64,000 nucleotides of DNA from Prorocentrum cordatum (GCA_963575745.1 CAUYUJ010000117.1:1-64000); one strand, 5' to 3'; positions 3,532 to 49,126 are shown, numbered from the stretch's first letter. The notes: generated by a model not told the origin, from the letters alone. Numbers and translations are program-made.

Positions 3532-3666
3532 TAGGAGGAGGAGGAGGGAGAGAGGAGGAGGAGGAGGAGGAGAAGGAGGAGGAGGAGGAGGAAGAGGAAA
3601 ACGAGGAGGAGGAGGAGGAGGAGGAGGAGGAGGAGGAGGAGGAGGAGGGTGAGGAGGAGGAGGAGG
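3532..3666 (-). repeat. (TCC)n microsatellite forming the 3' tail or target of LINE-A
   Basis: GGA repeats on the + strand directly abut the LINE 3' UTR. Confidence 0.9.
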
Positions 3667-3765
3667 CTGCAAGAACGATGCCTGGCGGTCCCCGCCCCAG
3701 CTCGCCACAGGAGAAAAGGATGGGCGGGCACTCCGCCACGGGGTGCCGTCCCGCCCCGTCCTGCC

Positions 3766-6700
3766 TCAGTCCATGAGGCATTCCCAGAAAGCGTCGCACT
3801 CCTCCTGTACCAGGGAGCGCGGTACCGCTTCGAGGGAAACCTTCACTGCGTAAGGGTTCCTGCCTCGGCGCAGGAGCGAGAGGCGGTACCCTGCGGTGGG
3901 GTTCGCTGGGGCCGCAACGCAGGCGCCCAGGAGCTTGCACCCCCTCTCGCTCGAAAAGACACCGCACCGATCGCAGAATGTATACTGGCCCACGCGGTGC
4001 AACTCGTGCCCCAGGGCCGCTCCACGGAGGGCGGGAGAAATGTCTCCTTCCCCTTCCCCCCGCCCCAGCCCGACTCCCCAACGACGATCCACCCTCATCT
4101 TACCCAGGCAGGGTCTGCGCGCCAACGCGCGCCTGGTCTTGCTGGAGAAAGCCTTGCGGCCACACGTCGAGCAACGCCACGCCCCCCTCCTCCAGAGGAG
4201 GACGTGGGCTCGGGCCCCCTCGGGCGGCCCTTGCCGCCGTCGGCGGGCCCCGCTGGAGCCCGCGGCAGGCCTCCCCGTGGAATCCCCGAAATCCGCCGTC
4301 AGCCCCGTCACCCCCGCCACCAGAGTCAACACCGCCTGGACCTCCGCCGAGCGGGTGGTCCAGGTCTGGGCCTTCCACGGGGGGACCTCCTGCATGTCGG
4401 CCCCTAGGCGGGCCTCATTATCTGCCAATTGATTCCCTTGAAAATCGAGAAGGCTTTCGTGCGAGTCATCGTTTGGCCCGCGAGCATGGGCCTTTACCTT
4501 GGCGGCCTGGAAGTCGCCTTCTTGGCTGAAACTATCCTGGAGCTGGGCCCAGATCCTGCCCCGGAGGTCGGCGTGAGGCCTCCGAGGGCTGCAGCACCAG
4601 CGGGGACCTCTACGGAGGCCTCGAATGACTGAACTGTTGTCGATCCCTACCCTCAGCGGAGGGTGGGCGCTATACAGCAACTCGAGCAATCCATACAATT
4701 CAGCACGGAGGACGGAGGCGAGGCCACGCAGCCCTGGGAGGGTACCCCGCATGGCCTTGACAGCCCCCCCGTCCTGGTCCAGGAAAACGAAGCCCCAACC
4801 GAAACTCTTGAGCCCTGGTGGGCCTCTGGCCGATCCGTCGGAGTAGGCCCGCCCTGAGACCAGCGGGGGATTCACAAAATCGGGGTTTTCATCCTCCAGG
4901 GCAGAAATCCAATCAGACTGCGGGTCCTCCAGGGGGTGCTCGTGAAGCCCACGGGAGAAGAGGAGGGAATCCGAGGAGGAGGATTCAGCACGATGCACGA
5001 TCCCTTGGAGGCCCTCAACCTCGGCGACGGTGGCTCTCGCAGCTCCCCGGTCTGGGCAGCAACAGAAACGATGGTGCTGACATCCGACTTCAGCGCCACA
5101 GGTTTGACAGGACCTGTCGTCCCCGAAACCCGCGCGCCAGACCTTTTCCTGGGTCCAGAAGTCTCGGCCTATGTAGGCCAGGATAGCCGATCGCCTCTGC
5201 GGCGATCGGTTAGCCTTTCGCCGAAGGAGAGCCCGAATAGGCTCGAGGAAAGGACGGGTGATTCCGAGGTCCCTGGAAGCCGCCCACGAGGTCATTACCG
5301 CAAATTCCAAACGGGTCCAGATCAGCTTCTTGAGACACTGCGGTGCCGTCCTACGCAACTCCCAGTGCTGCCCGAGATGGTCGGAGAAAACGTGAGGGGC
5401 AGGCCGCGTCCACGAGAGGAGATGGAGTGTGGCCCAGACGGCGGAGGCAGGTCCTTTTATCTGTCTCCAGGGGTTGCTCCCAGGCTTGGCGGCAGCGGCC
5501 GCCGCAACAGCTCTGCGCCACCCCGCAGCCATGATCTCATCATGGTTGCCAGCAAAGATAGCCTCCGCCCATTTGAGCAGCGGCTTCGTGCAAGCGTCGG
5601 CCAGGGGGTCGCAGCGAAGCGTCCACAGGCGCAGCAGTCGGTCCTTACCGATTGCGTTCCCGCCCAGCGCTGAAGCCATGAGAGCCCTCGCTCGGGTGAG
5701 CCGAGTCGGGTCCATTCCGAGGCAGACCGCCCCATACAGCACAGAGGGGAGAAATCCCATACGCGCAACTTGAAAGGTGCGCGCGCCCTGCTTGCCGAGA
5801 CTCGATAACTTACTTCTACGTCGCCGAGCGCTCCCCATCCTGGCATCGGCTCTGGCGCGCAGCGACGCAACTCCTCCTCCCGCCGAATCAACTCCGAGCT
5901 GCGTGCTGTTGGCCTGGACCTCCAGTCCAAGGCTGTGGGCCCAGCCTTTGATGCGGGCTCGCAGGGGGCGCTGCGCTGTCATGATGAACCCCTTGCCCTT
6001 CGGCTTGTCTGGTCGGACCCTGGAGACGGGGATCCCACGGGCCTCCATTTCTTCTATATACTGGGTCGTGGCCGCATGCAGCGAGGCCGAGACATCCGCC
6101 TCCGCACCTCGCGCCTGAATGCTTAAACCATCGACAAATAGCTTCAGCTGCATGGCAGGGTGCTCTTGCGCCAACCCGTCTACAACTGACAAGATGGCTA
6201 GCTTGAGGCATCTCGTGCCCCCCGCTGCTGCCAGCAACGACTGCAGAGACTGTGGTGACCGAGTGCACCGACACCACGCCGCGGAACGAAACAAAACGCG
6301 TGGCTGTGTATATTGAGATCAGGAGCTTCAAAAGCTGCAACCGAAACTGATGCTTGGGCGCCTCGGCCCACAGCAAGCACATCGTGACATGCTCGAACGC
6401 CTTCTCAAGGTCTAGGACCGCCGTGCCCGTCACCTCCCCAGGTTGGGCTCCTTCGTCGAACAACATTTGCTGCCATATCGCTTCCTCTGAGCCCCCGCCT
6501 GGCGCCGCGAAGTCGTAGTCCCGTCGAATCTCCCGCTCCCAGTCGTGGGGCTGGTGCGAGTGCGCGCGCTCCACCAGCCGCGCGGCAGTGGTGAGGGGGC
6601 CGATGGGCCTAGTCCCCCCACCCTGCTTGGCCAATAGAAAATACATCACGTAGCGCAGCTGGGGGGGCCACCTGGCCGTGCGCGACACATATGCGACGAA

Positions 6701-9492
6701 GGCGGCCAGGAACGCGAGCCCTTCGTCCCCCAAGCTCGCGAACCACCTGGGGTGCCAGTTGTCCACCCCGACCCCCGTGTGCTCTGGGAAGGCCCTGCAT
6801 ATGGACCTGATGTCGTCCGCTGTCGGCTCGACCATGCTATGCTCGAAAGTGGTCGCCTCCCAAGGCCGAGGGAGCTCGCCTCGGCTCTGGGCGCCGTGGG
6901 AGGTCCAGAGGTCGATCCACTTCAGCGCCTCCAGGTCCACCGCGGCCTGTGGACAGGTCATGTCCAGATTGGTGTGCCCTCGGGCCCCGAGCGTGGGGTC
7001 GACCCCCTGGCGCCACTTCGACATGCGGTGGACGAAACCTGCGCCTCCTTGTGAGCCGTCCTTGAGCCTCTGCCGCCACGCCTTGGCCCTCTGGTCTCGG
7101 AGGCCCTGCTCGATGACGTGGGCCTGCTGCGTGGCCCGACGCTGCAGCTCCATCGCCCTGGGGGCGTCCTCCCAGAGCGCGTCGCCGTCCCAGGTGAGGT
7201 CGCCCAGCGATAGGAGCTCGGCGTGCACGGCCTTGGCGTCGTCGCCCAGCGCGTCGCACCAGCGGGCAGCACCATGGTGGAGGCGTCTGCGCAGGCGCCG
7301 CCACTGGTCGGCAAACGGCTGCCAGTCGCGCCGCTGGCGGGCCGCCTGCGCCAGCCAGACGATGTCCCCGACGCGGCTGGCCACCCGGCGCCATGCCCTG
7401 GAGCGCGTGGTGCCCCTGGGCCTCGCATGCGCCTCTGGGCCTGCGATCGGGGCTCTGGCCCATCGAGGGTGCCCCCCCTGCCAGTGTAGTCGGCCTCGCC
7501 AACGAGGTCGTGGATGCCCTGCAGGTCGTGCTCGGCCGCCGCCGAGAACTCAGCCCACAACTCCTCCAGCTCGGCGTCGCTGTAGCTTGCTCCGCTGTCG
7601 AGGATCGGCCAGGCTGGAGGCTCCCGACGACAGCCCACGGGGAGGCGAGTCGGGAAAGCACGGGGCTTGACCAGCCTCCAGCCTAGCCGCTCCCGCAGCG
7701 GCCTCTCCGCCGCGATGGCGGCGGGGCTGTGCGGGGCGGTGGGCGCGTCGAGCACCTCCGCTGCACCGAAGGCTGACGCGATGCGCGTGTCCACCACGAA
7801 GTAGTCGATGACCCTCCCGCCTCCCTTGCCTTGGCAAGTGGGGGCGGCCGAGGAGAAGATGGTGCCCCCGACGTCGGCCACCCAGCCCGTGGCCATGAGC
7901 GTGTCGGGGGTGTTGTGGAAGTCGGCCTGGAGGACCCACGGGATGTCGCAGGCCCTCGCTAATTCTCCAATGGCGTCCAAGATGGACAGGTTGCGAACCG
8001 TCCAGCCCTCGGAAACCCAGAAGTAGGCGCTGAGGACCATGAGGCCACCACGAAGAAACCCAGGGGTCCAGGCCGCCACCAGCCTTCCTGGCGATCCTGG
8101 CGGCGAGAAGTCGAAGGTGTCCACGCCCTCGAGGTAGGTGAGGCCCACGCAACGTGGGGCGACGATCCCCACCCCTGCCACTCTGCCGCCACCTGGCCCC
8201 ACCGCCGCGGGAGCTAGGGCGACGGTGAGGTGCCTCTGGAAACAGCTGGCACTGATCTCGCCGACGTAGTCGCTGGTGAGGCGGTGCTCCTGAACCAGCA
8301 TGATGGTATTCCTGCCCAGCGGCATCTCGTCCAGATGGTCGACGAGGGTGCCCCAGGCGCTGCCGTTGAGGCCTCTGAGCACCATGCCAGGCTTTGCGTG
8401 GCGCCCCTTGCCTCGAGACCTGGGCCTCCAGTATCCCTCTCCCCAGCTGGGCTGCATCGGCCACCCCCACGTCGGGGGAGCCGAGCTGGGGGCGCTCGTG
8501 TCGAGAGGCGTCGACCACCCGCACGTCTGCGGCTCTCGGTCCCGCGAGCACATCGCTGATGGCATCGACCACCCGCCTGGCGGCGGCACCAGCGAGAGGG
8601 GCGCATGGGGGGAGGCATCGGCCACCCGCGCATCCGCGGCTCCCCACTCATGCGCCACTGGGGCCTCTTCTGAGGCGTTTGTGGCCGTGCTCAAGACTGA
8701 GCTGACATCCATGTCGGGCTTGGCGTGGCGCCCCTTGCCTCGTGGTCGGGAGTTCCAGTATTCCTCTCCCCAGCTGGGCTGCATCGGCCACCCCCCCGTC
8801 GGGGGGGCCGGGCTGGGGGCGCTCGTGCCGGGAGGCTTCGACCACCCGCACGTCTGCGGCCCTCCGTCCCACGAGCTCATCGCTGACAGCGTCGACCACC
8901 CGCCTGTCGGCGGCATCAGCGAGAGGGGCGCATGGGGAGAGGCAACGGCCACCCGCGCATCCGCGGCTCTCCACTCATGCGTCACTGGGTCCTCCTCCGA
9001 GGCGTCCGTGGCCGTAGTCGAGGCTGGGCTGACCCCCATGCCAGGCTTGGCGCGTCGCCCTCTGCCCCGCGACCGAGGCCTCCAGTAACCCTCTCCCCAG
9101 CTGGGCTGCATCGGCCACCCCCTCGTCAGGGGAGCCGAGCTGGGGGCGCTCGTGTGGAGAGGCGTCGACCACCCGCACGTCTGCGGCTCTCCGTCCCACG
9201 AGCACATCGCCGATGGCTTCGACCACCCGCCTGTCGGCGGCATCAGCGAGAGGGACGCACGGGGAGAGGCATCGACCACCCGCGCATCCGCGGCTCTCCA
9301 CGCATGCGTCTCTGGGGCCTCTTTCGTGGCGTCCGTGGCTGTGCTCGAGGCTGAGCTGCAGTCCAGCCGTCGGAGCCACGGCGCGAGCAGCTGGCGGCGG
9401 AGCGTGTCCGCGCCCCTGAGCGCCCGCCGCGCCCAGGTGCTTGAGGAGGAGCTGTCGCCGTCCCCGTCCAGGATGTCGAGGCCCTCCTCCAT
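3766..9492 (-). pseudogene. LINE-A ORF2 (repeat region, APE endonuclease, reverse transcriptase, RNase H, Cys-rich tail) with two frameshifts
   Basis: Split over ORFs 6958..11070, 5888..7384 and 3766..6294. Frameshifts fall in G runs at 7472-7478 and 6218-6223. The RT catalytic motif reads FVDG, not (Y/F)xDD. Start at ATG 9492 is a guess. Confidence 0.85.
8382..9360 (-). repeat. Three 327-bp (109-codon) in-frame tandem repeats upstream of the APE domain
   Basis: Unit starts at 8382, 8709 and 9036. Peptide AADARV..SLMPPTGGWS..QTCGWS..GWPMQPSWGE.YW occurs three times. Confidence 0.95.
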
Positions 9493-9763: not shown

Positions 9764-10891
9764 TCAAGCTGTGCTGGAGTCTTCGTCGGCCGCTGGGGGC
9801 TTGGCTGCTGCCCGCTCCAGGATCCTGGCTCGGACGTCCTGTGCCAGCTCGCGCTTAGTCCTGCCTGTGGCCCCCGCAGGAGCATTGGCGCCTGCAGCGC
9901 CGCCTCCGCTGGCTGCAGCAGCGTCGCGAGCACCGTCAGCGCCAGCAGGGGGAGGGGCTGGTGGCCCCGCTGTGGGGGCCGCCTTGGCCGCGGCCGCCAC
10001 TGGCTGCTTGCCGTCTGCGCCGCCTTTGCCTGCCGCCTTGCCTGGTGGCGCCGCTGAGGCGGGAGCTGCAGCGGCCTCTGGCGGGGGAGGCTCCGACCGA
10101 GCACTCTTGCTCTTGAGCCTGTCGCTGAAGGCCTTGAGGTCCGCTCGCATCGCGGCGAGCCCCTCTGCCGCTGGGCCGAAGTGCCTCTTGACCTCCGACT
10201 GGACCTGCTTGACGAACTGGCCCATCTGCTCCTCGTACTGGCGGTGCTCTTCAGGCGGGATGTCGAGTCCCTCCAGGTCGAACGCCTTGCCTGGCCGCAC
10301 GCTGAGGATATCCAGGTTGCCCTCGAGCAGCTGCGAGAGGTCCAGGGCTGGCGTGGGCCCCTCCGCAGGCGCGACGACCTTGGGCGCCGCTCGGGCGTAG
10401 GCCGCCTGGACCGCCGCCTCAGCGTCGGCGACCTCGAGGACCCAGGTCTCCCGCTGCTCCTTCTGGTCCTGCAGCCACTGCTCGCCCTCGGAGATGCTCT
10501 CGATGGTCCTCTTGAGCGCTGCTTCGGCCCTGCGGAGCCGCGCCTGGGCCTGGTTGAGGGCGACGTCTGGGTGCACGTCTGGAGGCTGCGCACGGGCGAG
10601 CGCCTCGAGGTGCTGGACAGCCTCTGCGTCGCCGTCGGGGAGGGTGGCCCGCAGCTGCTTGAGAAGCTCCTCGCGGCTCGGCTTGACTGACGGGCGACTG
10701 CGGCGCCGCGAAGAGGCGCCGCTGGGGCCCCAGGCGCCCTGCGGGGCTCGCTCTTGTGAGGTGGCTGGCTGCAGACCTCCCTTGCACTTGTAGCACTCCG
10801 ACCTGTTGGTCCAGTTCCACTTATATCCACATCCCCTGCACTTCGCACACTGGCTTCCAGTCTGCTGATCATCCTTCTCCCTGCGCCCCGT
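9764..10891 (-). CDS. LINE-A ORF1: RanBP2-type zinc finger + coiled coil + Ala/Pro-rich tail (~375 aa); start codon reads ACG
   Basis: CRGCGYKWNWTNRSECYKC motif followed by heptad-like ALNQAQARLRRAEAALKR. No in-frame ATG between the SL relic and the finger; ACG at 10891 would give M-GRREKDD. Confidence 0.75.
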   Translation of the reverse strand, partial: TGRREKDDQQTGSQCAKCRGCGYKWNWTNRSECYKCKGGLQPATSQERAPQGAWGPSGASSRRRSRPSVKPSREELLKQLRATLPDGDAEAVQHLEALARAQPPDVHPDVALNQAQARLRRAEAALKRTIESISEGEQWLQDQKEQRETWVLEVADAEAAVQAAYARAAPKVVAPAEGPTPALDLSQLLEGNLDILSVRPGKAFDLEGLDIPPEEHRQYEEQMGQFVKQVQSEVKRHFGPAAEGLAAMRADLKAFSDRLKSKSARSEPPPPEAAAAPASAAPPGKAAGKGGADGKQPVAAAAKAAPTAGPPAPPPAGADGARDAAAASGGGAAGANAPAGATGRTKRELAQDVRARILERAAAKPPAADEDSSTA

Positions 10892-11044
10892 GCGCGACCG
10901 TGAAGAACTGATCTCCTGCCCGACCAGTACAGTACAGGAGCTCCTCGGAGCGTGAACGAAAATGTGAGGGAGCCTGCCTTGCCCAGCAGGCCCCTGATGC
11001 GCGGGCCGAGCCTGCTGGGCAGGCCCCTGGTCCCTGCAAACCAC

Positions 11045-11070
11045 CTCGAGAAATGGTTTACTTGAGCCAA
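11045..11070 (-). other. Relict dinoflagellate spliced leader (TTGGCTCAAG, 11070-11061) followed by a possible second degenerate relic (CCATTTCTCGAG)
   Basis: Exact match to the last 10 nt of DinoSL (DCCGTAGCCATTTTGGCTCAAG), located precisely at the microsatellite/LINE boundary. Confidence 0.8.
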
Positions 11071-11185
11071 GGAGGAGGGGGAGGAGGAGGAGGAGGAGGA
11101 GGAGGAGGAGGAGGAGGAGGAGGGTGACGAGGGTGACGAGGAGGAGGAGGAGGAGGAAGAAGAGGAGGAGGAAGAGGAAGGTGAC

Positions 11186-11217
<32 letters not shown>

Positions 11218-11304
11218 GGAGGAGGAGGAGAAGGCGGAGGAGGAGGAGGAGGGGGAGGGATATGATGATGATGATGATCATGCTGATGATGATGATGAGG
11301 AGGA
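11071..11304. repeat. (GGA)n/(GAT)n microsatellite between LINE-A and the YR element
   Basis: Directly visible. Confidence 0.9.
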
Positions 11305-11476
11305 GGAAAACGAGACTCAAGCTGGGGGGCGGGGGGCCTGCAGCGGCGGGGCGCCGGCTGCGGTGCCGCTCGCCTGCCGCCGGCGGCTGCCGACATGGTG
11401 CGTGCTGACCTTTGCACCGACGTGGGGTGATGCTTGGTGCAGGTCCACCAGCCCAGCCCAGGGTCTGCACCCCCGC
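11305..11476 (-). repeat. Split direct repeat B2 (3' terminus of the YR element)
   Basis: Matches 11691-11851 except a 10-nt insertion (ggcggctgcc) and one extra C. Confidence 0.93.
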
Positions 11477-11564
11477 AGAGCTGCGGGCACAACTGGGGAG
11501 TGGCACCCCAGCAGCCCAGCCTTTCCAACCCTGCCCACGGTCTACCCCTGGGTGGGCGGGCGGG

Positions 11565-11851
11565 CAAAACCAGGGAAGGGGCCCTGGCCAACCTAGACCC
11601 TCCGGTCCTGAACCAAAACTGCGCGGCGCCCCCCGCCCCGCTCCTCTCCCTACGTTTTCCGTGACATGCAATGCTAGCCTCGCTGTCTGCGGAAAACGAG
11701 ACTCAAGCTGGGGGGCGGGGGGCCTGCAGCGGCGGGGCGCCGGCTGCGGTGCCGCTCGCCTGCCGCCGACATGGTGCGTGCTGACCTTTGCACCGACGTG
11801 GGGTGATGCTTGGTGCAGGTCCACCAGCCCAGCCCAGGGTCTGCACCCCGC
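11565..11851 (-). repeat. Internal B1-A2 junction (B1 11691-11851, A2 11565-11693, sharing the TCC trinucleotide)
   Basis: + strand 'gctgtctgc GGA aaacgagac' joins copies of the two termini. Confidence 0.93.
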
Positions 11852-11892
11852 GTGTATGGGCTGGGCGCGAACACCCCACGTGGCGCCCGAAC

Positions 11893-13350
11893 TTACATGC
11901 GCTCTGGTTCGGGCTCGCTGTCGCTGTGGTCAGCAACGAGCTGCGCGCGCGCACCCGTCTCGAGCTCGTGCGGCTTCATGTATGCCATGAAAGCCGCAGA
12001 TCGCCAACCACCTGCTTGTAAAATCTCCCACAAAGGACATCCTTGAGCTGCCATGTCCTGAGCGGTTCCACGCCGGAACGCGTGCGCCCCTGCGTTCTCT
12101 ACACCGCACCGCGCGGCATACGCCCGCGTCTCTCGGAGATAGGCGTGGTACCAAAAAGAGAAAACTCTCGTTTGCCCGCTTGACCTGGCCCTCCGCGCTG
12201 CTGCGACAAGCCGGCGCACGGGGCACATGCGCGCCCCCTGTGCTCTACACGCGCAGTCCCTGCGAATAGCCACGGGAGCTGTTGAATTTTTCCTGCTTGC
12301 CAAACTTACGATGGCACATCGCTCTGTAAATTCAACGCCAGAATGGCGACCACGGAAAAACGGGCCATGCATCAGCGGCACAAGTTCCGCGCCAGCGCGG
12401 AAAAGAAAGCCGCGCGCCACGGCAAAAACATCAGCCAGTTCATGCTTGCCTTCGGCTCCAGCTGCAGAGATCATGTGTTTCACGACATGCCCGTGCAGAG
12501 CCGGGCGGACGCGAACTTGGCCAGCGCCCCTGCGGCGCGCCCCTTTGACCATCTGCTGCGCGCCTCCTCCCCACCAGGTGTTAGGTAAGTCCAACAACTT
12601 CTGTGCCCACCGAAGGTGTTGCACATAATTTCGCAATGTCGGCCCGTGCGGGACAAACATCGCGAATTGGCGGACACTGTCAGCTGTAACGGGAAAGTGT
12701 GGCAAGGAGAAGCATTCGCAAAACTCCGCCCAAGCGTAAAGGGCGCTGCGTACTGTCTTCCAAGAGCCACGGACTGTTTCCATGGCGGCACGTCTGGAAC
12801 CCTCTCGCAACAGAGTTTCCTGATCCACCCTCGCTGGCAATCCGCGCTGGCTCGCCTGGAGATTCGCTAACCTTTGTCTCGGCGTCCCCGTACTGGGGAC
12901 AACTGCCGAGAACCGTTCCTGAAACGACTGTCTGCACAGCGCCTCGCACCTAGCAGTCTCATCAAAAAAGTCCCCAAGAGCGTGCGCTACGTCGTACCCG
13001 GTAGAGTGGGAAGATATGACTTGTAACCACGTTTGCCCTGGACCGGGCCGAGGGCGCAAGGCGGAAACCAAGGCGCTCACCTTGGGACCTCTGCGGTGGC
13101 CAACACCACGCGGAGCAGGCCAAACAACAACGGCGCGCTCTTCAGCCAGTGATCTCGCCACGGAGGGCGCCAGGCCCGCGCCAGCGTGTAGACCCCGTGC
13201 GGGGAGGCGCCGCAACCCCTTCGGGCTACGGCTCCGTGGCGCCGCTAAGCCTACAGGCGTCGGCGGCGGTTTCCGCGGCTCGGGAGATGGATCCCGCCGG
13301 CGAGGGCGATGGAGCCCTACTGGGCAGATTGGCCGGGGGGCTCCAGCCAT
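11893..13350 (-). CDS. Tyrosine recombinase (phage-integrase family, DIRS-type)
   Basis: Catalytic set R (FLFRAGAE), K (SRKNS), HxxR (GAHAFRRG), W (AGGWRS), Y (FMAY). In-frame ATG at 13350; frame open from 13416. Confidence 0.92.
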   Translation of the reverse strand: MAGAPRPICPVGLHRPRRRDPSPEPRKPPPTPVGLAAPRSRSPKGLRRLPARGLHAGAGLAPSVARSLAEERAVVVWPAPRGVGHRRGPKVSALVSALRPRPGPGQTWLQVISSHSTGYDVAHALGDFFDETARCEALCRQSFQERFSAVVPSTGTPRQRLANLQASQRGLPARVDQETLLREGSRRAAMETVRGSWKTVRSALYAWAEFCECFSLPHFPVTADSVRQFAMFVPHGPTLRNYVQHLRWAQKLLDLPNTWWGGGAQQMVKGARRRGAGQVRVRPALHGHVVKHMISAAGAEGKHELADVFAVARGFLFRAGAELVPLMHGPFFRGRHSGVEFTERCAIVSLASRKNSTAPVAIRRDCACRAQGARMCPVRRLVAAARRARSSGQTRVFSFWYHAYLRETRAYAARCGVENAGAHAFRRGTAQDMAAQGCPLWEILQAGGWRSAAFMAYMKPHELETGARAQLVADHSDSEPEPERM

Positions 13351-14000
13351 GGCGCCCCCGGGGGGGGGGGGGCGAATCGCGGCGCCCGTTTCCTTCCCCG
13401 CCGGCCGACCTGTCAAGCCGTTTTGCGCGAGTCACTCATCGTGCGCACAGGTTCCGCCAAGTGCAAAATCGTCGTCGTCGTCGCCGCCGCCGTCGCCATC
13501 GTCTCCTCCACTCCCTCCTCCGAGGACCGGAGAAAGACAAGGCAGGGGGAAACGAGGAGGGTGAACAGAGAGGGAGGGGGCAGGGGCAGGGGCAGGAAAG
13601 AGCGAGGAGGGGGCAAAACCCCAGAGCAGGTAACACGGAGAAGGAAAAATGAGATCTCCCTCTTCGCTCCCGTGCCGACACGACGGCGGGATTTCCGGCC
13701 GCGTTCGCAGGACAGCCTTGGCTACGCAATGTGCGCCCCAGGAGGGGTGACAACATTTCCGACAGCAAGTCTCGGCGCGGCCTGGGGTCGCGGGTGGGCC
13801 GGTATACCCAAAAACGGATACAAAGGAATGATGCGAGCACGCGCGTGACCAGATACCCAGAGTCTTTCAGCAAGGACGTGAACGGAGGAGGGCGCCTGGA
13901 GGGGAGGGAGGCGAAGGAGGGGGCAGGGGGGGAAAGGGAAGTGGTGAAGAAGCAACAAGGAGAGCGACAATGGGATGCCAGAGCTTCGCGCGTGCGTGTG

Positions 14001-15976
14001 TCACGGGTCAGCGAACACTGCGTCAAGGGTCGGCCACCGCAGGGCCCGGCGATGGAAATCGCGCCATGGTCCGAGGATGTTCCTACTTAGACAATCAGCT
14101 GGGTTACTGGCAGAAGGCACCCAGCGAAACTCAACGCAGGCGTGCGCCTGAGCAGCGGCAATCCACGCATCACCCGCGATGCTGTTCAAATCTTGTTTTC
14201 GTGACCAACCGGACACCATGACATCTTTTGCACACGTGTTATCTATGAAAACCAGGACCCTTCTGCCAGATACCTCCCGCCTCCAAGTGTGCAGCGCTGC
14301 GGCTACAGCAAGGAGTTCAAATGCATTTATCTGCGTGCGCCTCGCGCGCAAAATGCGCAGCCAAGACTTTGGGAGAATTGCTCATAGCATATTCCCTGTG
14401 CTCCCGGTGAGTCCACACTACTGCGGCTCCAACTCCCCCGGTGCCTTCGGCATCAGTATAAAGAAGCATGTCAAAAGCCGCCTCCGCGAGTTCGCGGACG
14501 TGAACAACGCTGCCAATCTGCTCCTTGAGCAAGCGAATCCACCAGCTCAGACAAGAGCGCTCCCGGCGCGTGAGCGTACGACTGGCGTGACTACTTGCGG
14601 CTGCCCGCCAATAGAAGGGCCGCAAAAATGAACGCCCGACTCGGCCGAACGCTCTCTGACACGCAAAATTTAAACGCCCTGCGAACCTGGACGCCACGGC
14701 TTGAGACATAGACCCGGAATCCAAGATTAAGCGCAACTCGTGGACCCACGCGTTTGCTTTCTCGAACCCGAGGGGCCACGTGACTTCGCGTGGCCCAACG
14801 CGCACGTCGCATCCTAGCAAAAATATGGAGTCGCACATGCCTGCAGATTTGCGGGGATCGAGCTCCCAACCTAACATGGCAACCAAGTCTTGCCATGTTT
14901 GCTTTGCCCTGTGCGCGTGCGCGGAGAGTTCGGCAAGGAACGCGTCATCCACGTAAATGAACAACACTAAACCAAACAAGCGCACAGCGATCCTTTTAAT
15001 CGCCTGCGCGCACCTCCACCAGGCGTACACGCCGCCAACGGCCCCGAAGGGCTGAGTGAGCAGTTGCGAAACCTTCCATTGGTTGCTGTCCGTGTCAAAC
15101 ACAAGGCACCACATCAACCAGGATTGGCCGATGTCCGGGCACACCGTTGTAAAAAGCAGAAGCGAAATCATCCTTTCCCACAGAAACTGGGGCGACGCCC
15201 TGCGGCGACGAATCGCCAAGAAGGCGCGTCAACAAAAGCACCGCGTGCGTTAAGTGGTCGTGAGTGTCATTCCACACCTTTTCTGTAGAAAAAGCGAAAG
15301 AATTGACGCCGTTGTTGCTAAAATTGTCGATTACACGAACCTTGTTTTGGCCATTCCTGGTCTCGTTGACGCCGAAACGTTCGACTAGTAAAACGCTGCT
15401 CAAATCAATATCTGACACCGCGGAAGGGGGGGCCACTTTGCCTACGCCGACTTCCTCGCAATGCTTCCGCCACACTTCCGCGGCGCAACCGCACGGCGTA
15501 GCCTGCGCAAGCGTGCGTGCGTTGACCTCGCGGCAACGCGCCTGGAGATCCGTCGGACATGGGAGGCAGCCGACGGCTTCCCTGCCATGGACCAACAGGG
15601 GCCCATCTGCCGGCTTCCCGACGCCTCCCGCGTGCATCGCCCCCGACACCGGGAACCCAAACGTGAGATGATCAACGAGGCTGGCGCCCCCGTGGTCCGC
15701 TGCCTCCAACATCTCCCGCAGGAGCGGCACATGCAACTTACCTACGGTAGTTTGAAACTGCGCCGGCACCCTGCGGCGCCACTCCTGCCTTGCAGGCTCG
15801 AGGGCCTGCGCCCGCCCTCGCCGAAAACGAAGGGCGCGCGCCCTCTCGGAGGCCACGGCGGCGGCGTCGGAGGCGACAGCCTGAATATTTGTAACGATAT
15901 CTGGATCCAACGAAGGAAGCCCATGCAGGCACGTTGACGACGCGCGATTCTGCGCGATATGCTCCTCCGGAGACAT
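14001..15976 (-). pseudogene. YR-element pol: reverse transcriptase + RNase H with two 1-nt frameshifts in homopolymer runs
   Basis: KVRVIDN, KDDFASAF, QPFGA, IYVDD, LYTDA, INAFELLAV, FIDN, WVPSASNPADCLSR. Shifts at T runs 15151-15155 and 14350-14353. Confidence 0.9.
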
Positions 15977-16369
15977 CGCGCCACCTGGGTGCCCAGGCCC
16001 GGGGGCCTCCTTTCCGGCGAGCGCGGCAGGGGGCCCGCGGGTGCTGCCGCCAGGCAAGCAAGAAGAAACCGTGTCTGCCTGTCTGCTGCGCCTCTGCGGG
16101 CTGCTTTGCGCCCGTTGTGAAGAGCAGAGGGGGCGGGGGCAAGGGCGCAGTGAGGGGCAAGGAGGGGGGGGCGGTGGAGGGGAGAGGTGGGCGGCGGAGG
16201 AGCGCAGAGGACTCTATGGACCCGAGGCGCCATTGCCCGCAGAAGAAAAGAGCTGGCGATCAGCCTGCCTCCTGTCACGACACGAAGCCGCGGCCTCACT
16301 CGCAAGCGGCCCCTCCCCAACGGGTGGAATGTCCCTCGAAATCCAAGCACAAGTTGCCTCGCCGCCGCT

Positions 16370-17749
16370 TCAGTAGCCCTTGCGGGCGCCCTTCGGCGGG
16401 GCCGCCGGCGGCGGGGGCCGCGGCGGGAGCTGCGGCCGGGGCGCCGCCCCCTGCGGCGCGCCGCCCTTGCCCTGAGGCCTACCCCTGCCGCCGCTGGCAG
16501 CGCCGTCGCTGGAGTAAGCCCACTGCCGCTGCCGCGGCGCCTCTGCCGGCGCCTTGGACCGGGAAACCTGGTCCCGCACCTCCGACTTCACGTGGGTGTC
16601 CACCTTCTCGAAGGTCACCGCCGGCTTCGCGTGCGGGTCCCTGTTCTCCAGGCGAGTGGCCAAGTGCTGCCACTCGCGCCTGTCCAGCTCGTAGACTACG
16701 GCCACGTTGCTCTCTTGTGCCAAATGGCACAAATCCAAAAACCTCCGGAGAAGCCTCTCTATCGAGACCGACTCGACCCCAGTCTCTGCCTGCAAGACAA
16801 GTTGGGAAAGAGAGCGGCTCCACCAGCACGAAGCGAAGTGCGCGAAGGAAGCGTATTCCTGACCTTTCTGAGCTTTCCGGAGGGAGCTGTCCACCGACCG
16901 CCGGAGCGGCTCGAAGGTGTGCTCCAAGTCCCCGGAAACCCAAGGCAGGCGGTCGTGGGCCGCCTTCCTCCTGGCCTTGCGCCAGAGGGGCTGGAGCGTG
17001 GCAGACTTGGGGAGGTTCTCCAGAGGGAGCCCTTCCAAGCCGTACTTGGCGAGGGCCTTGCAGACGTCGATAGACGACGTCTTCTTGTCGTTCGTGTCCG
17101 AAGAGGAAGCCGACCGGGACCGGCCCCTTCGGTGGCGCGTGGCGTGCCTGGCGCTCTTGGCGACAGCCTCCATGGCCTTCACGGATGCCTCGTTGAACGC
17201 ATCCGACGCTCTCGTCGGACCCGCCGGGGGTGGTTCCGCAGGCTGCTTCTGGATCCGCTCGACCACAGCAGACACGAGCAAGAAGGCCGTGGTGTCCACC
17301 TCGCGCTCTAGTGGGTCCCTGCAGACCTCCTTGACGATTTCTGGATTCAGGAAGCGGAGCTGCCAACCAGAATGGATGCCCGCATCCTCAAGGCGCCCTG
17401 CGACGCGGAGCAACTCCCCCTCCTCGACCCGCGGGGGGCACAAACGACGCAAAGTAGCCTCTACAGGCTCGGACTCGTAGTCTGCAGTTGGGGTCCTGCG
17501 ACCCTCCTTCGAAGGTGAACGTGCCGCCCGTGCGGGCGATGGCAAGACTTCGTAAACCTCTTCGGCCCTACGGCCCGCAGCACTCTCCTCGGCCCTGCGG
17601 CCTGAACCAACTTCCTCGGCCCTGCGGCCTGAACGTGAACGCCCTCGCCTCCGCGACCGACGTGGCTGGAGCGCTGCCCGCGGCTGCCTGCGGCGCGAGC
17701 GGGACCGGTCGCTGGGGCTGCCCGACCGGCGCGGGGACGGGGCCGGCAT
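16370..17749 (-). CDS. YR-element ORF1 (gag-like, 459 aa, RS-rich N-terminus)
   Basis: ATG 21 bp after repeat A1; uninterrupted ORF upstream of pol; helical segment VYELDRREWQHL typical in position for DIRS gag. Product assigned by position. Confidence 0.75.
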   Translation of the reverse strand: MPAPSPRRSGSPSDRSRSRRRQPRAALQPRRSRRRGRSRSGRRAEEVGSGRRAEESAAGRRAEEVYEVLPSPARAARSPSKEGRRTPTADYESEPVEATLRRLCPPRVEEGELLRVAGRLEDAGIHSGWQLRFLNPEIVKEVCRDPLEREVDTTAFLLVSAVVERIQKQPAEPPPAGPTRASDAFNEASVKAMEAVAKSARHATRHRRGRSRSASSSDTNDKKTSSIDVCKALAKYGLEGLPLENLPKSATLQPLWRKARRKAAHDRLPWVSGDLEHTFEPLRRSVDSSLRKAQKGQEYASFAHFASCWWSRSLSQLVLQAETGVESVSIERLLRRFLDLCHLAQESNVAVVYELDRREWQHLATRLENRDPHAKPAVTFEKVDTHVKSEVRDQVSRSKAPAEAPRQRQWAYSSDGAASGGRGRPQGKGGAPQGAAPRPQLPPRPPPPAAPPKGARKGY

Positions 17750-17769
17750 GGCTGACCCGGGGGGGATGC

Positions 17770-17898
17770 CAAAACCAGGGAAGGGGCCCTGGCCAACCTA
17801 GACCCTCCGGTCCTGAACCAAAACTGCGCGGCGCCCCCCGCCCCGCTCCTCTCCCTACGTTTTCCGTGACATGCAATGCTAGCCTCGCTGTCTGCGGA
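17770..17898 (-). repeat. Split direct repeat A1 (5' terminus of the YR element)
   Basis: Identical to 11565-11693. Confidence 0.95.
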
Positions 17899-17905
17899 GG
17901 AGGAG

Positions 17906-20900
17906 TTCATGTTTCCCCCCCGGGGGGGTAGAACGCAGTGTGTTTAGATGAGGGGGAAAGCAGCATCATCATCCTGTCCCTCCTCGTAACTAGGCTCAGG
18001 AAGCGGCGCCTGCTGGGCCTGACCAGTGGATCCCAGGGGGGGGGGGCCTCCACGGGGGCCGAGGGCCCCCGAGGGGGTTCCGCCAAAAGCGGGTCCAGGA
18101 AACCAGCTGATCCTCCCTCTCCTCCCAGCTCCCTGGCCGCCACGCGGCGTCGGATGGCCTCCAGCGCTGGGTGAGGTCGCCACCCTGCCCTGCAGGGGGT
18201 AGCACTGCCCGACATCTGGGCTGTTGGGTCTGCAGCAGCCGCACGCGGTCAACAGCAGAGAGGATGTGGAGGACCACCACAGGGGCACGGTTGGACTGGG
18301 GGTGGAGGCCTCGCATCATCCTGCCTAGTCGACAGCGCGTGGCAGAGGAAAACATCTGGCCTGGGCACTTATTCTCTGGTCGTTTGCTGAGCCGCTCCGT
18401 ACTGCAAGCCCCGCAGCGGCGACAAACACCAAGGAAGGACCACTCGAAAGACGAGCGAACACCAACGAATGCCCCATCTTTTCTCGGCCCTTGAGAAACT
18501 TGAAATTCTCGCGCTTATCCACGCAGCCCGTCATCTCCGAACTCTCCGCACACGTGTTGGCTGCTCGGACCTGGCAGTCATGGCTGATAGAGCCACCCTG
18601 GGTGCCTGGGACAGCCGTCCAGGCCTGCCACCGATGGGCTCCAACTTCCCGTGGTCTGGAAACCTTGGACCGAGCAGGCAACTGCGCGAAAGAGAAAAGC
18701 GGAAGGACCGCTCCAACAACTCTCGCTGCAGCTCTGGCCTTCATAATCCGACGATCAAGGTCGCCCAGGCCCCCAGGACTGTCCCGAGCATGAAGTGGCA
18801 CAACATGCTTCGCATGCCCATCAGCAACACGATTGGCAAAGAGTCCTCTTCTGTTCAGGAGGCAGTGCTTTAATGACATCCATACTACGGTGAGCGGGCG
18901 TGCGATGTGCCCGTTCGATATATAAGCCACGTCTCAGTCCTGCATACTCTGAGCGGCTCAGCAACACTTGGGATTGGCTCTGGTTGTGTCTCCGGACAAC
19001 GCCGAGGCAATCAGAGTGAACCTGGACTGGCTTGCAGACGACATCGGCAGGGGCAACGATGGCCATCTGCTCAGCTGCCTGAGGGGCCTGAGGCAAAGAA
19101 GGCCACGCAGGCCTGTGAAATCGCGCCACCATCTCCTCTGTCCGCGACCTCATATTCACACCAGCATAGGCCGCCCTCGAGAGCTCGCGGATGGGGCTAC
19201 GCGTGCACGACCCATCGACGACGACGTCGACGACATCGCCCAAAACCGAGAGATCCTCAAGAGGGTGGCCATCCAGCGTGAGCACCTCAGGATATCTCTG
19301 GCCGGTCGAGGGTTGGAGGTAGCACGACGGATGCTTGAAAACAAGACGGGGCCACAAAGGATCTTCGCCCCCCCGCCTGCAAAGCCTCGGCGATTATCTC
19401 AGCGCTCCAAACCTTCTCTCTAGCCTCGACCACCTCTGGCACCTGGCAGCCCCACATTCTGTGATGAACGCTATCTGCGCTCCCGCACATAAGCCATCTC
19501 CCGCCATATTCATATCCTAGCGGCTTTAACTGACCGCTAATAACAAAAACAGCCATAGTGAAACAGGTCACGATTTCATGCTTCTGACGTTCACTTTACT
19601 TCTTAGACCTGCACGCGCACGTACGCACTAAGTCAGCACGCGCTCTAACACTGTCACCGTGCGTGCCTACACTGCGCGCCGTGTCACGTTCGCGCTGTCT
19701 CTGCATAGCTTCGCGCAATAGAAGTCTCACAAGAGAAGGTGATGTGTAAAGAAGCGATACCTCAATCCCTCGGTCATCGATCCACTCCGAGAAATTCTTG
19801 GGCTCCCACTTGACCCTCTGGAGGCGCAGCAACATTCTGGCACTCGGGCTCTTCGTTCTGCTCCAAGGTAGCTCAGGGTCTCATCTGTCGCGAGCGATGC
19901 GATGCATATCCTCGGTCTGCAGCGCCGCGAAAAGATCGCTCCTTCGCGGCCGCCGTCGACCGCGGGGCGGTTGCCCAGGGCGCCGCGGGCGCCGCAACAG
20001 CATCTGCAGCAGGGTCGCCATGGAGCAAACGCTTTGCCATGAGAGAGGCCCCATCGATCGGGGGGTGACTTGAAACTGAACAGCGTCGCGCGGGCCCGTC
20101 TCAGCTCGCAATCGCCCATGCCGGGCACCGCGCTGCCATGGGCCCAGGCTGGCTTCAAACCAACAATGCGAATCTGAGACATCCAATGCTTTCCGTCAGC
20201 GAGCCACCTCCGAAAGCGCAGAACTCGGAGAGAAGGAAGCTTGAATTGTCGAAACCGAAGCCGTCTCTTACGAAGCGCACCCTCGGTCGAACGAGTCTGC
20301 CCAGGAACGAACTCGACCCGGGGTTGAGCGAAGCAGATGTAACTACACCTTCAGGCAATCCTCGAACGCGAAGCTGATGAGTTTTGCCAACAAGACCGGG
20401 CTGGCTGGCTACCGTTATGGCTTTCGATTCCGATATGTCAGCCTTGAGCTCCTGCTCCAACATATTGTAGAAAGCTGCTGCTGCTTCGGGGGCAGCTCGC
20501 AATGGGTTGCATTTGTCCCCCATCCCCAATATCGCGTCATCGTCGGTCCACGAGGATGGGCGAATCGTCGGATGCCTTAACGTGGAGGCATCGAAGGCCT
20601 CAATCGCATAGACCTCCTCGAAGGCATCATTGAAGCTCTCACCTGCAGGGGGGCCGCTGGATGCAAAATAGACCACAGCGTGGAATGCTGGGCCAAGACG
20701 GACGAGCCTCGGGGACCCCCCCAAGTTGCACAGAACCTTTACAATGACCTGAGGGAAACCTTGCCGATGAGCTCTATCGCGTAGGAGGTCTAACTGGGAG
20801 GATTCGTAATCTTTCTTCCCATCCCACTGGGCTTCCCAAGACGACCTGGCCCCTGGGCTCCGCGACCTCCGAAAGGGCCGCGTGGGCCCACGCGCGCGCT

Positions 20901-31269: not shown

Positions 31270-32365
<1,096 letters not shown>

Positions 32366-36899: not shown

Positions 36900-41080
<4,181 letters not shown>

Positions 41081-48989: not shown

Positions 48990-49064
<75 letters not shown>

Positions 49065-49076
49065 GATCATCATCAT

Positions 49077-49126
<50 letters not shown>

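What the first reader, a model, noticed from the sequence alone, without database searches (positions are those of the whole stretch)
11045..11110. Full-length LINE starts with a relict spliced leader directly after a (TCC)n tract: candidate promoter-less retrotransposon released by trans-splicing
Seen: on the minus strand (TCC)n is followed immediately by TTGGCTCAAG, the last 10 nt of DinoSL, then TAAACCATTTCTCGAG (possibly an older relic), then the 5' UTR. Known: dinoflagellate mRNAs are SL trans-spliced, and retroposed genes keep relict and tandem SLs. Inference: the LINE RNA was SL-capped before reverse transcription. Once inserted, the (TCC)n target could act as a polypyrimidine tract and the relic's terminal AG as an acceptor. 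The element could then be cut out of the host intron transcript by trans-splicing and regenerate its 5' end without an internal promoter or ribozyme.
Basis: partly seen in the sequence, partly recalled or inferred. Interest (0 to 1): 0.9.

Follow-up and report, generated by a model that had tools for sequence, protein, structure and literature searches.

The report
Spliced-leader relic heading a dinoflagellate LINE
A 7.4-kb jumping gene (LINE) begins with the last 10 letters of the dinoflagellate spliced leader, and other copies keep at least 19, so its RNA was trans-spliced like a host mRNA before being copied back into DNA; whether this replaces a promoter is untested.

Summary
On the minus strand a (TCC)n tract is followed by TTGGCTCAAG (11070-11061), then TAAACCATTTCTCGAG, then a 7.4-kb non-LTR retrotransposon (LINE-A, ends 3669).

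The 10-mer alone is not significant in the window: 0.19 are expected by chance. Three results make it a real spliced-leader (SL) relic:
- It sits exactly at the element's 5' edge.
- A second LINE 13 kb upstream starts with a degenerate SL-like 15-mer after its own (TCC)n. These are the only 2 of 33 scoreable (TCC)n ends that do so.
- In public-run contigs of this multi-copy family, 2 contigs in each of 2 runs continue upstream into more DinoSL. At least 19 nt are contiguous, with a further partial SL before them.

The second half is untested or weakened:
- (TCC)n flanks both ends of the LINEs, so it is better read as their 3' tail or microsatellite target.
- No host gene or intron is detectable. 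The neighbours are other retroelements on the same strand.
- No RNA data were available.
- This copy has about three frame disruptions.

Reuse of the relic's AG as acceptor fits the invariant CTCAAG|TAAACC junction but is not shown.

The parts
11071..11304 (-). (TCC)n-rich tract with an (ATC)n island, directly upstream of LINE-A. Read as the 3' tail of LINE-B and the insertion target of LINE-A. It continues the short (TCC)3 at 17899-17907, from which the insertion of element C separated it.
   Evidence: Sequence. Tract listing. Flanks of element C are ...aactcctcctcc | C | tcctcctcatcatc....
11061..11070 (-). Relict spliced leader: TTGGCTCAAG, the last 10 nt of DinoSL and the first letters of the inserted cDNA.
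   Evidence: sequence; DinoSL as printed in papers; score statistics; other copies continue into at least 19 nt of SL at this same place.
11045..11060 (-). TAAACCATTTCTCGAG, the first nucleotides of the LINE RNA after the trans-splice junction. It may be a very old degenerate SL relic or a conserved leader motif. ATTTCT(C)GAG recurs at the same relative place in LINE-B.
   Evidence: sequences; only CCATTT matches DinoSL, p about 0.07. Homology with LINE-B is by eye only.
10873..11044 (-). Rest of the 5' UTR. It holds an acceptor-like TTTGCAG ending at 11034, where some family contigs diverge downstream.
   Evidence: table 7: loose ends 'before' 11034 in X1 (3 contigs) and 'before' 11040 in X3 (1 contig).
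9764..10872 (-). ORF1-like region. A CxxC...CxxC zinc knuckle (10849-10784) and a coiled-coil-like protein lie in a frame that is open from 11062 to 9764 but has no ATG before the knuckle. The only nearby ATG (10872) is out of frame with it.
   Evidence: No Pfam family at E<=0.01; two sub-threshold chance-level matches at E<=0.1.
8382..9358 (-). 3 x 327-nt tandem repeat inside the element, between ORF1 and the endonuclease.
   Evidence: 86% matches.
7474..8298 (-). APE-type (EEP) endonuclease region. The GDFN motif reads ADFH in this copy.
   Evidence: BLASTP to P0010 (E 6e-25) and P0007 (E 3e-20), over the parts of those proteins that Pfam calls Exo_endo_phos. No Pfam hit of its own. Weak PDB matches to EEP-fold proteins only.
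6158..7477 (-). Reverse transcriptase, in a different frame from the endonuclease.
   Evidence: RVT_1 at E 5.8e-4, below the Pfam cut-off. HMMER gives 1630 relatives at E<=1e-3, best P0001 at 2.6e-80. The relatives carry RVT_1 above the cut-off. Frame changes shown.
3766..6222 (-). RT C-terminal part, RNase H (about 4399-4848) and a Cys-rich tail; third frame. The stop codon is at 3766-3768.
   Evidence: RNase_H at E 9e-4. 36% identity to P0001 over 534 aa, E 3e-91..
3669..3765 (-). 3' UTR, ending ...catcgttcttgcag.
3534..3668 (-). (TCC)n tract directly after the 3' UTR: the element's tail and/or the rest of the split target tract. The variant 'ctcgtcaccc' occurs on both sides of LINE-A.
17907..23986 (-). 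LINE-B, an older degenerate LINE of the same superfamily. It begins right after a 189-nt (TCC)n (24175-23987) with AGCCGTTCAGGCTCAGAG (23986-23969), then ATTTCTGAG.
   Evidence: sequence; 12 of 15 matches to DinoSL, p 0.0036 per 30-nt window. RT homology (E 1.8e-13; E 1e-22, 21618-18929). The 3' end is inferred.
11305..17898 (-). Element C, a DIRS/Ngaro-like tyrosine-recombinase retroelement with split direct repeats (A1-coding-B1-A2-B2). It is inserted in the (TCC)n between LINE-B and LINE-A and has no SL-like start.
   Evidence: RVT_1, RT_RNaseH and a weak Phage_integrase match. Repeats 17898-17759 = 11693-11554 (97%) and 11849-11691 = 11473-11305 (94%). SL score 5, p 0.39.

Best explanation
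LINE-A (minus strand, 11070-3669) is a near-full-length but frame-disrupted copy of a multi-copy dinoflagellate non-LTR retrotransposon. Its order is ORF1, APE endonuclease, RT, RNase H. Its RNA is matured like a host mRNA, with the 22-nt DinoSL trans-spliced onto the nucleotide that now reads T of TAAACC (11060).

Target-primed reverse transcription copied that capped RNA almost to its 5' end. For this copy the cDNA ended, or was joined, inside the SL, so only the last 10 nt (TTGGCTCAAG) were kept.

The insertion went into a (TCC)n tract that is the 3' tail of the upstream LINE-B. LINEs of this group end in (TCC)n-type tracts and land in them. That explains (TCC)n on both flanks and the head-to-tail, same-strand arrangement.

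What is shown: the sequence, the SL identity, the longer SL in other copies, the fixed junction, the flanks on both sides, and the domain content.

What is inferred: trans-splicing recurs at this junction in every generation. Priming through a (UCC)n tail is what targets (TCC)n. The precursor RNA comes from read-through transcription rather than from a promoter of the element's own.
For: Sequence and coordinates. DinoSL as printed.

Family evidence. The 5' region is multi-copy: 167 contigs were laid from run X1 and 48 from X3, at 85-100% identity. At place 11070, 2 contigs in X1 and 2 in X3 run on with AATGGCTACAG(G/C)CAAAATG... on the + strand. That is the complement of more DinoSL, giving at least 19 contiguous nt plus a second partial SL. 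The join to TAAACC is the same as in the window.

Position statistics. The LINE-A edge scores 10 (p 0.0012) and the LINE-B edge 9 (p 0.0036). These are the only 2 of 33 scoreable (TCC)n ends with a score of 9 or more.

The junction falls exactly at the 3' end of the SL exon, as trans-splicing predicts.

LINE nature. RVT_1 and RNase_H are weak in this copy. HMMER finds 1630 relatives, and relatives have Exo_endo_phos + RVT_1 + RNase_H above the Pfam cut-offs. The endonuclease region aligns to those domains. There are no terminal repeats.

(TCC)n lies after the 3' ends of LINE-A, LINE-B and LINE-D and before the 5' ends of LINE-A and LINE-B.
Against: There is no RNA evidence: no RNA run holds the stretch, so ongoing trans-splicing at 11060/11061 has not been observed.

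Only one genomic copy could be read in full. No whole genome is held, and both metagenome scans found nothing.

The family evidence rests on four short Logan contigs and consensus strings of 30 letters or fewer, with agreement of 0.87-0.9. The runs are labelled 'DNA?' by guess.

The SL units seen in other copies are not a clean SL. There is a T between the partial upstream unit and GTAGCC, and the upstream unit lacks CAAG. Simple trans-splicing does not explain that.

Some contigs share the first 30-37 nt and then diverge downstream. This is unexplained.

The organism is called a dinoflagellate only on the strength of the DinoSL itself. Whether (TCC)n is tail or target cannot be separated with one copy per family.
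Confidence: 0.85

Rival explanations
1. The element has no promoter. Because it lands behind (TCC)n, every copy gets a polypyrimidine tract, and the relic's terminal AG is the acceptor. Read-through RNA from a host intron or an upstream unit is cut there by SL trans-splicing, which restores the exact 5' end in each generation.
For: The junction CTCAAG|TAAACC is invariant in the window and in 4 contigs from 2 runs. A lineage that has cycled many times carries only 1-3 SL units, not a long stack, so splicing must usually remove or replace earlier relics. A Y-rich tract plus AG lies within 10 nt in this copy. LINE-B lies head-to-tail upstream and could supply read-through RNA. No Rfam ribozyme is found at the 5' end. 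There is a precedent in a host gene: the A. carterae PCP gene has an SL-like sequence exactly at its trans-splice site (PMC2488372, passages).
Against: No transcripts were seen. No host gene or intron is detectable. Other copies carry a second partial SL and, in X1, ATC repeats upstream, so neither the exact one-SL regeneration nor a directly abutting (TCC)n is general. (TCC)n also follows the 3' ends, so its presence is explained by tail or target choice without any splicing role. For dinoflagellates the passages I read report only AG, with no consensus; the word 'pyrimidine' occurs 0 times in PMC2488372. 5' truncation at integration can also keep the number of relics low. An internal promoter was not tested.
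Confidence: 0.3
2. A one-off capture. An ancestor acquired the SL once, and the relic is now ordinary inherited 5' UTR. Transcription starts from a promoter within or near the relic (the TTTT/TTTG promoter idea for DinoSL relicts), and the window copy is just a 5'-truncated insertion.
For: The SL units upstream of TAAACC look alike in X1 and X3, including the odd T and the partial unit. That suggests inheritance rather than fresh addition. LINE-B shares ATTTCT(C)GAG after its SL-like unit, which hints at an old inherited leader. The promoter hypothesis for relicts is in print (PMC5585692 and PMC6050394, passages).
Against: Dinoflagellate mRNAs are described as SL trans-spliced (PMC7245778 recovered DinoSL in only 13.5-50% of full-length transcripts), so a fresh SL would probably still be added in each generation. 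The window's 10 nt are a perfect match to the SL although the copy has frame disruptions, but 10 nt is too few to weigh. The window copy has lost the TTTT/TTTG motif.
Confidence: 0.15
3. The LINE is site-specific for SL RNA genes (like SLACS/CZAR/CRE/NeSL), or the SL comes from RT template-switching onto the SL donor RNA (like U6-L1 chimeras).
For: SL sequence directly abuts the element. SL-gene-targeting LINEs exist in other trans-splicing lineages (recalled; the phrase occurs in papers listed, which I did not read).
Against: Only 10 SL nt lie upstream, preceded by (TCC)n. The downstream flank is (TCC)n, not an SL intron. The join is exactly at the end of the SL exon, whereas a target-site or template-switch origin would carry SL-gene flank or the SL RNA intron. 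The endonuclease is APE-type, not restriction-like.
Confidence: 0.03
4. Chance match of a 10-mer next to a microsatellite.
For: 0.19 matches are expected per window, and 18 of 100 shuffles have one.
Against: It sits at the exact edge. LINE-B shows a second case. The match extends to at least 19 nt in independent contigs.
Confidence: 0.02

Closest known systems
DinoSL-relict retrogenes ('recycled' processed cDNAs; Slamovits & Keeling 2008 as cited in PMC6050394, PMC7245778 and PMC12014239; Song et al. 2017, PMC5585692)
   Same: A DNA-encoded, 5'-truncated DinoSL lies at the 5' end of a retro-copied unit. Tandem partial relics occur in some copies. The AG in or after the relic is discussed as an acceptor.
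   Different: Here the retro-copied unit is the retrotransposon itself: a multi-copy family whose every propagation cycle passes through an SL-capped RNA. It combines this with (TCC)n flanks. The papers I read treat RT-encoding 'retrogenes' only as a GO category (PMC5585692). None states that a LINE family starts with an SL relic.
SymbioLINE and other Symbiodiniaceae LINEs (de Mendoza et al. 2018, PMC5890265; passages)
   Same: Dinoflagellate LINEs with Exo_endo_phos + RVT_1 + RNase_H, conserved UTRs and no poly-A tail. DIRS elements arranged A-coding-B-A-B sit beside them, as element C does here.
   Different: ORF1 here is a zinc-knuckle/coiled-coil protein, not a DNMT. That paper mentions the spliced leader 0 times. 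Direct relatedness was not tested.
R2 and L1Tc/ingi: LINEs released from co-transcripts by a 5' HDV-like ribozyme (abstracts of PMC3774820, PMC3185411 and PMC4035085, seen in the listing)
   Same: The same problem and the same logic: an element that is co-transcribed with its surroundings needs a precise 5' end. A short 5'-terminal hallmark is shared by different elements; compare Pr77 with the first 30-37 nt shared by divergent contigs here.
   Different: The cut here would be made by the host trans-splicing machinery, which also adds the cap-bearing leader. No ribozyme family matched. L1Tc transcripts are described as unspliced.
SL-gene-targeting LINEs (SLACS, CZAR, CRE, NeSL-1; recalled, not read here)
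   Same: A LINE physically joined to SL sequence in a trans-splicing organism.
   Different: Those elements insert inside SL RNA genes, are flanked by the 5' part of the SL exon, and use a restriction-like endonuclease. Here the 3' end of the SL is attached, truncated at its 5' side, and the endonuclease is APE-type.
Microsatellite-targeting or microsatellite-tailed LINEs (abstract of PMC4640811; family names recalled only)
   Same: The same simple repeat lies on both flanks, and the elements are nested head-to-tail on one strand.
   Different: The (TCC)n specificity and its combination with an SL-derived 5' end are new. The abstract refers to restriction-like-endonuclease elements, whereas this one is APE-type.

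Membership tests
Non-LTR retrotransposon (APE-type LINE) | Reverse transcriptase of the LINE type | tested here: met
   RVT_1 at E 5.8e-4, below the cut-off. phmmer finds 1630 relatives at E<=1e-3 and 592 at <=1e-10, best 2.6e-80. Of the 12 relatives scanned, 5 reach RVT_1 above the gathering score and 5 more match it below that score.
Non-LTR retrotransposon (APE-type LINE) | Apurinic-like (EEP) endonuclease N-terminal to the RT | tested here: met
   By transitive homology only. 7474-8298 aligns to the Exo_endo_phos parts of P0010 (E 6e-25) and P0007 (E 3e-20). It has no Pfam hit of its own. The AF2 single-sequence model was unusable, pLDDT 37. The GDFN motif reads ADFH in this copy.
Non-LTR retrotransposon (APE-type LINE) | No terminal repeats; simple-repeat or A-rich 3' end; variable 5' truncation; many copies | tested here: met
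   Self-BLAST finds only the internal 327-nt repeats. The 3' UTR is followed by (TCC)n. The family is multi-copy in X1 and X3, and the window copy is shorter at its 5' end than those copies.
Non-LTR retrotransposon (APE-type LINE) | Target-site duplication | tested here: inconclusive
   Both flanks are (TCC)n, so a duplication cannot be delimited.
DinoSL-relict retro-copy | Genome-encoded sequence identical to the 3' part of DinoSL at the 5' edge of the copied unit | tested here: met
   10 of 10 nt at 11070-11061. At least 19 nt in other copies.
DinoSL-relict retro-copy | Transcripts that carry a fresh DinoSL, with or without the relic | not testable with these tools
   No RNA run holds the stretch.
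DinoSL-relict retro-copy | Host is a dinoflagellate (uses DinoSL) | tested here: inconclusive
   Inferred only from the SL sequence in the window and in X1/X3 contigs. No genome is held. Taxon look-ups failed.
SL-gene-targeting LINEs (SLACS/CRE/NeSL type) | Insertion inside an SL RNA gene, with SL-gene sequence on both flanks | tested here: not met
   The upstream flank is (TCC)n after 10 SL nt, and the downstream flank is (TCC)n.
Ribozyme-processed co-transcribed LINEs (R2, L1Tc) | HDV-like self-cleaving ribozyme at the 5' end | tested here: not met
   No Rfam family reaches the gathering score in the window. At E<=1 in 10600-11400 there are only spurious archaeal C/D-box matches on GAT repeats. 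Divergent ribozymes could escape this search.
Microsatellite-specific LINEs | Copies consistently flanked by one microsatellite in one orientation | tested here: inconclusive
   Met for LINE-A (both flanks), LINE-B (both flanks) and the 3' flank of LINE-D. The 5' end of LINE-D is hidden by an N gap. In X1 contigs ATC repeats precede the SL units. The 3' ends of other family copies were not seen.

The most novel reading that the evidence does not exclude
This LINE group has turned host SL trans-splicing into its own way of making a 5' end. By priming on and landing in (TCC)n, each new copy is placed behind a pyrimidine tract. By copying its SL-capped RNA to the end, it carries an AG exactly at its first nucleotide. 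Any read-through transcript, including one from the LINE upstream in a head-to-tail array, can then be cut there, capped with a new SL and used again. The result would be a promoter-less, ribozyme-less, self-renewing retrotransposon. It would also identify LINEs as the machinery that makes the SL-tagged retrogenes of dinoflagellates.
Probability: 0.3. Interest if true: 0.85.

Novelty: new variant of a known kind. Interest (0 to 1): 0.62.

Why it matters
DinoSL relics are the standard tag for retrogenes in dinoflagellates. The reviews I read state that it is unknown which reverse transcriptase makes those retrogenes, and they lean towards LTR elements (PMC6050394; PMC5585692).

A LINE family whose own copies start with the SL shows two things. 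LINE RNAs are trans-spliced like host mRNAs, and this LINE machinery copies SL-capped RNA to its very 5' end. That makes the question testable: do SL-tagged retrogenes share this family's (TCC)n-type tails and target tracts?

It also offers a possible third solution to the problem of how a LINE makes a precise 5' end without a promoter, beside internal promoters and 5' ribozymes.

Practically, counts of 'retrogenes' based on DinoSL relicts will include retrotransposon copies.

Tried and rejected
- Whole genome: none is held, so 5' ends of all copies could not be aligned.
- Metagenome contigs: an exact 25-nt 5'-UTR pattern gave 0 hits. An ORF1 protein scan gave 600 pattern matches, none confirmed.
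- Viral contigs with the RT: no match.
- RNA runs: no RNA holder is listed, so nothing can be said about expression.
- X2 and X4 gave only 4 and 2 contigs, with 22-36-nt partial matches or one 236-nt piece. This is not evidence of anything.
- Another copy of LINE-A in the window: none.
- Another DinoSL relic in the window with 3 or fewer mismatches in 15 nt: only the finding itself, with 1.57 expected by chance. An ungapped 21-nt scan was not informative.
- AF2 of the endonuclease region without an alignment: pLDDT 37, not used.
- PDB sequence search: only E 0.3-0.8 matches.
- Atlas look-ups failed. No taxon names were obtained.
- Earlier notes of this scan: nothing relevant.
- ORF1 of LINE-A against a LINE-B frame: no similarity (the frame chosen for B was not that of its ATG). 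I had suspected a shared zinc knuckle by eye and drop that claim.
- The downstream loose-end consensus strings of X1 and X3 are not in the window.
- Literature: four searches and passages of seven papers gave no statement that a LINE family begins with an SL relic. Supplements were not opened, and subscription papers (for example Slamovits & Keeling 2008, Lin et al. 2015) were not available, so a prior report may exist.

Full report
**Observation.** On the minus strand the window reads ...(TCC)n cccctcctcc TTGGCTCAAG TAAACCATTTCTCGAG GTGGTTTGCAG.... The 10-mer lies at 11070-11061 and the 16-mer at 11060-11045. DinoSL is printed as DCCGUAGCCAUUUUGGCUCAAG in PMC6050394 (passages) and PMC7245778, so the 10-mer is its 3' end. 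The exact 10-mer occurs once in the window. Shuffles give 0.19 on average, and 18 of 100 have at least one match. The motif alone proves nothing; the case rests on where it lies and on other copies.

**What follows the motif.** Downstream on the minus strand lies a 7.4-kb non-LTR retrotransposon, LINE-A.
- The 5' UTR is about 190 nt.
- An ORF1-like frame has a CxxC...CxxC knuckle (10849-10784) and a coiled-coil-like sequence. It is open to 9764.
- A 3 x 327-nt tandem repeat follows (8382-9358).
- An endonuclease region (7474-8298) aligns to the Pfam-certified Exo_endo_phos parts of two relatives, at E 6e-25 and 3e-20.
- The RT piece spans 6158-7477. RVT_1 is below the Pfam cut-off, but phmmer finds 1630 relatives, the best at 2.6e-80.
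- An RNase H and Cys-rich C-terminal part ends at the stop codon, 3766.
- Of 12 long relatives scanned, several carry Exo_endo_phos + RVT_1 + RNase_H above the gathering scores, for example P0010.
- There are no terminal repeats.
- The copy is damaged. Against P0001, ORF2 lies in three frames: 7944-7474, 7477-6158 and 6222-4780. The only ATG before the knuckle (10872) is out of frame with it.

**The flanks.**
- The 3' UTR ends ...catcgttcttgcag and is followed by about 135 nt of (TCC)n (3668-3534). The element therefore has (TCC)n on both sides, and the variant 'ctcgtcaccc' occurs in both tracts.
- Upstream, the tract at 11304-11071 is cut off from a short (TCC)3 at 17907-17899 by element C (17898-11305). 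Element C has RVT_1, RT_RNaseH and a weak Phage_integrase match. It has split direct repeats arranged A1-coding-B1-A2-B2, at 97% and 94% identity. That is the DIRS arrangement described for Symbiodiniaceae in PMC5890265.
- With element C removed, the (TCC)n tract directly follows the 3' end of LINE-B (23986-17907). Its RT is recognised by a family HMM (E 1.8e-13) and by tblastn of relatives (E 1e-22).
- A third LINE, LINE-D (RT at 48293-47499), also ends in (TCC)n (45337-45266). Its 5' end is lost in an N gap next to a (TCC)5.
- All four retroelements lie on the minus strand. With n = 4, and with LINE-A and LINE-B linked by tail-targeting, this is not significant.
- The window holds 34 (TCC)n tracts on both strands, so the repeat is common here.

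**A second case in the window.** LINE-B starts right after a 189-nt (TCC)n with AGCCGTTCAGGCTCAGAG ATTTCTGAG. Its first 15 nt match DinoSL at 12 of 15 positions. Only 0.36% of 30-nt windows score as high, and 0.12% reach the score of LINE-A. Among the 33 scoreable (TCC)n ends, only these two score 9 or more; all the others score 6 or less. Element C, which is not a LINE, has no SL-like start (score 5, p 0.39). Both LINEs have ATTTCT(C)GAG soon after the SL unit. I saw this by eye and did not test it formally.

**Other copies.** No genome is held and both metagenome scans were empty.
- Sequencing-run look-up listed ten runs holding a small share of the stretch's words, none of them RNA.
- Laying the contigs of four of them on 9400-11090 showed a multi-copy family in X1 (167 contigs, identities spread from under 90% to over 99%) and in X3 (48 contigs). 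X2 and X4 gave only a few partial matches.
- At place 11070, 2 contigs in X1 and 2 in X3 do not continue into (TCC)n. They continue with AATGGCTACAGGCAAAATGATGATGAT (X1) and AATGGCTACAGCCAAAATGG (X3) on the + strand.
- Read on the element's strand, these give GTAGCCATT directly before the window's TTGGCTCAAG. That makes at least 19 contiguous DinoSL nt. They are preceded by a T and a further partial SL (CCATTTTGGC in X3, CATTTTGCC in X1), and in X1 by ATC repeats.
- The 10-mer is therefore the remnant of a longer SL, the join to TAAACC is fixed, and the window copy is 5'-truncated within the SL.
- This excludes chance. It also argues against insertion into an SL gene and against template switching onto the SL donor RNA. 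Either would bring SL-gene flank or the SL intron, and neither would end exactly at the exon's 3' end.

**Mechanism.**
- Shown: an SL-bearing RNA of this family was reverse-transcribed, and the join is at one site.
- Inferred: SL addition recurs in each cycle, since dinoflagellate mRNAs are described as trans-spliced (PMC7245778 recovered the SL in only part of its full-length transcripts). A (UCC)n RNA tail pairing with nicked (GGA)n explains why the LINEs land in (TCC)n, in one orientation and head to tail.
It fits the fixed junction and the small number of SL units in a lineage that must have cycled many times.
- A. carterae PCP is a host-gene precedent for an SL-like sequence sitting exactly at the trans-splice site (PMC2488372).
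- Against that step: no transcripts were available. The same paper reports only AG, with no upstream consensus. The extra partial SL in other copies shows that the outcome is not always one clean SL. 5' truncation can also prune relics. (TCC)n is already explained by tail or target choice.
- No host gene or intron was found. Of 135 ORFs outside the retroelement block, one has a TSP1 match at 32943-33818 and one a sub-threshold MBDa match in the 90-nt tandem repeat.
- No Rfam ribozyme was found.

**Unexplained.** Some contigs share the SL and the first 30-37 nt, up to ...GGTGG or ...TTTGCAG, and then diverge downstream. These are the loose ends 'before' 11034 in X1 (3 contigs, agreement 0.68) and 'before' 11040 in X3 (1 contig). 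Those sequences are not in the window. This could mean sub-families or non-autonomous derivatives that keep a short 5' hallmark, as Pr77 does in trypanosomatid retroposons (abstracts).

**Literature.** I made four full-text searches. I read passages of PMC12014239, PMC10235124, PMC5585692, PMC7245778, PMC8045281, PMC5890265 and PMC2488372.
- None says that a LINE family begins with a DinoSL relic.
- The nearest hint is that 'RNA-dependent DNA replication' is enriched among DinoSL-tagged retrogenes (PMC5585692).
- Supplements and subscription papers were not seen, so the finding may be in print.

**Verdict.** The trans-splicing-as-promoter-substitute model remains open, at about 0.3. The class is a new variant of a known kind: an SL-relict retro-copy in which the copy is the LINE itself, combined with (TCC)n tail or target use.

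Noticed in passing
window 11305-17898 (minus strand): A DIRS/Ngaro-like tyrosine-recombinase retroelement (RVT_1, RT_RNaseH, weak Phage_integrase). It has split direct repeats A1 17898-17759 = A2 11693-11554 (97%) and B1 11849-11691 = B2 11473-11305 (94%). It is inserted inside a (TCC)n tract.
   Followed up: partly
window 17907-23986 (minus strand): LINE-B, an old and heavily broken LINE of the same superfamily. Its 5' edge after a 189-nt (TCC)n reads AGCCGTTCAGGCTCAGAG (12 of 15 matches to DinoSL), followed by ATTTCTGAG, which resembles ATTTCTCGAG of LINE-A.
   Followed up: partly
window about 45340-52160 (minus strand): LINE-D, with RT homology at 48293-47499 and a 3' end followed by (TCC)n at 45337-45266. 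About 3 kb of 90-nt and 77-nt tandem repeats (49301-52058) lie upstream of the RT. The 5' end is lost in the N gap 52059-52158, beside a (TCC)5.
   Followed up: partly
window 11034-11040, in contigs of runs X1 and X3: Some family contigs share the SL and the first 30-37 nt of the element and then continue with unrelated sequence. This may be a short 5' hallmark shared by sub-families or non-autonomous derivatives.
   Followed up: partly
window 8382-9358: A 3 x 327-nt tandem repeat (86% matches) inside LINE-A, between ORF1 and the endonuclease. It is in frame with the endonuclease as a repeated 109-aa unit.
   Followed up: no
window 37157-41076: About 3.9 kb of a (CACACG)/(CA)-type short-period repeat with extreme strand skew (AT skew up to 0.88).
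   Followed up: no
window 31465-32366 and 48993-49306: Long (ATC)n/(CAT)n microsatellites. ATC repeats also sit inside the tract upstream of LINE-A (about 11262-11297) and upstream of the SL units in X1 contigs.
   Followed up: no
window 53-519 and 2539-2937: An 84-nt tandem repeat family (76% matches), present in two blocks.
   Followed up: no
window 1123-1384 and 43602-43863: A 262-nt inverted repeat pair, 95% complementary and 42 kb apart. Probably two copies of a small repeat in opposite orientation.
   Followed up: no
window 10872-10849: The only ATG upstream of the ORF1 zinc knuckle is out of frame with it. In most X1 contigs, two substitutions at 10881/10880 create another ATG in the same (non-knuckle) frame. 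The true ORF1 start is unclear.
   Followed up: partly
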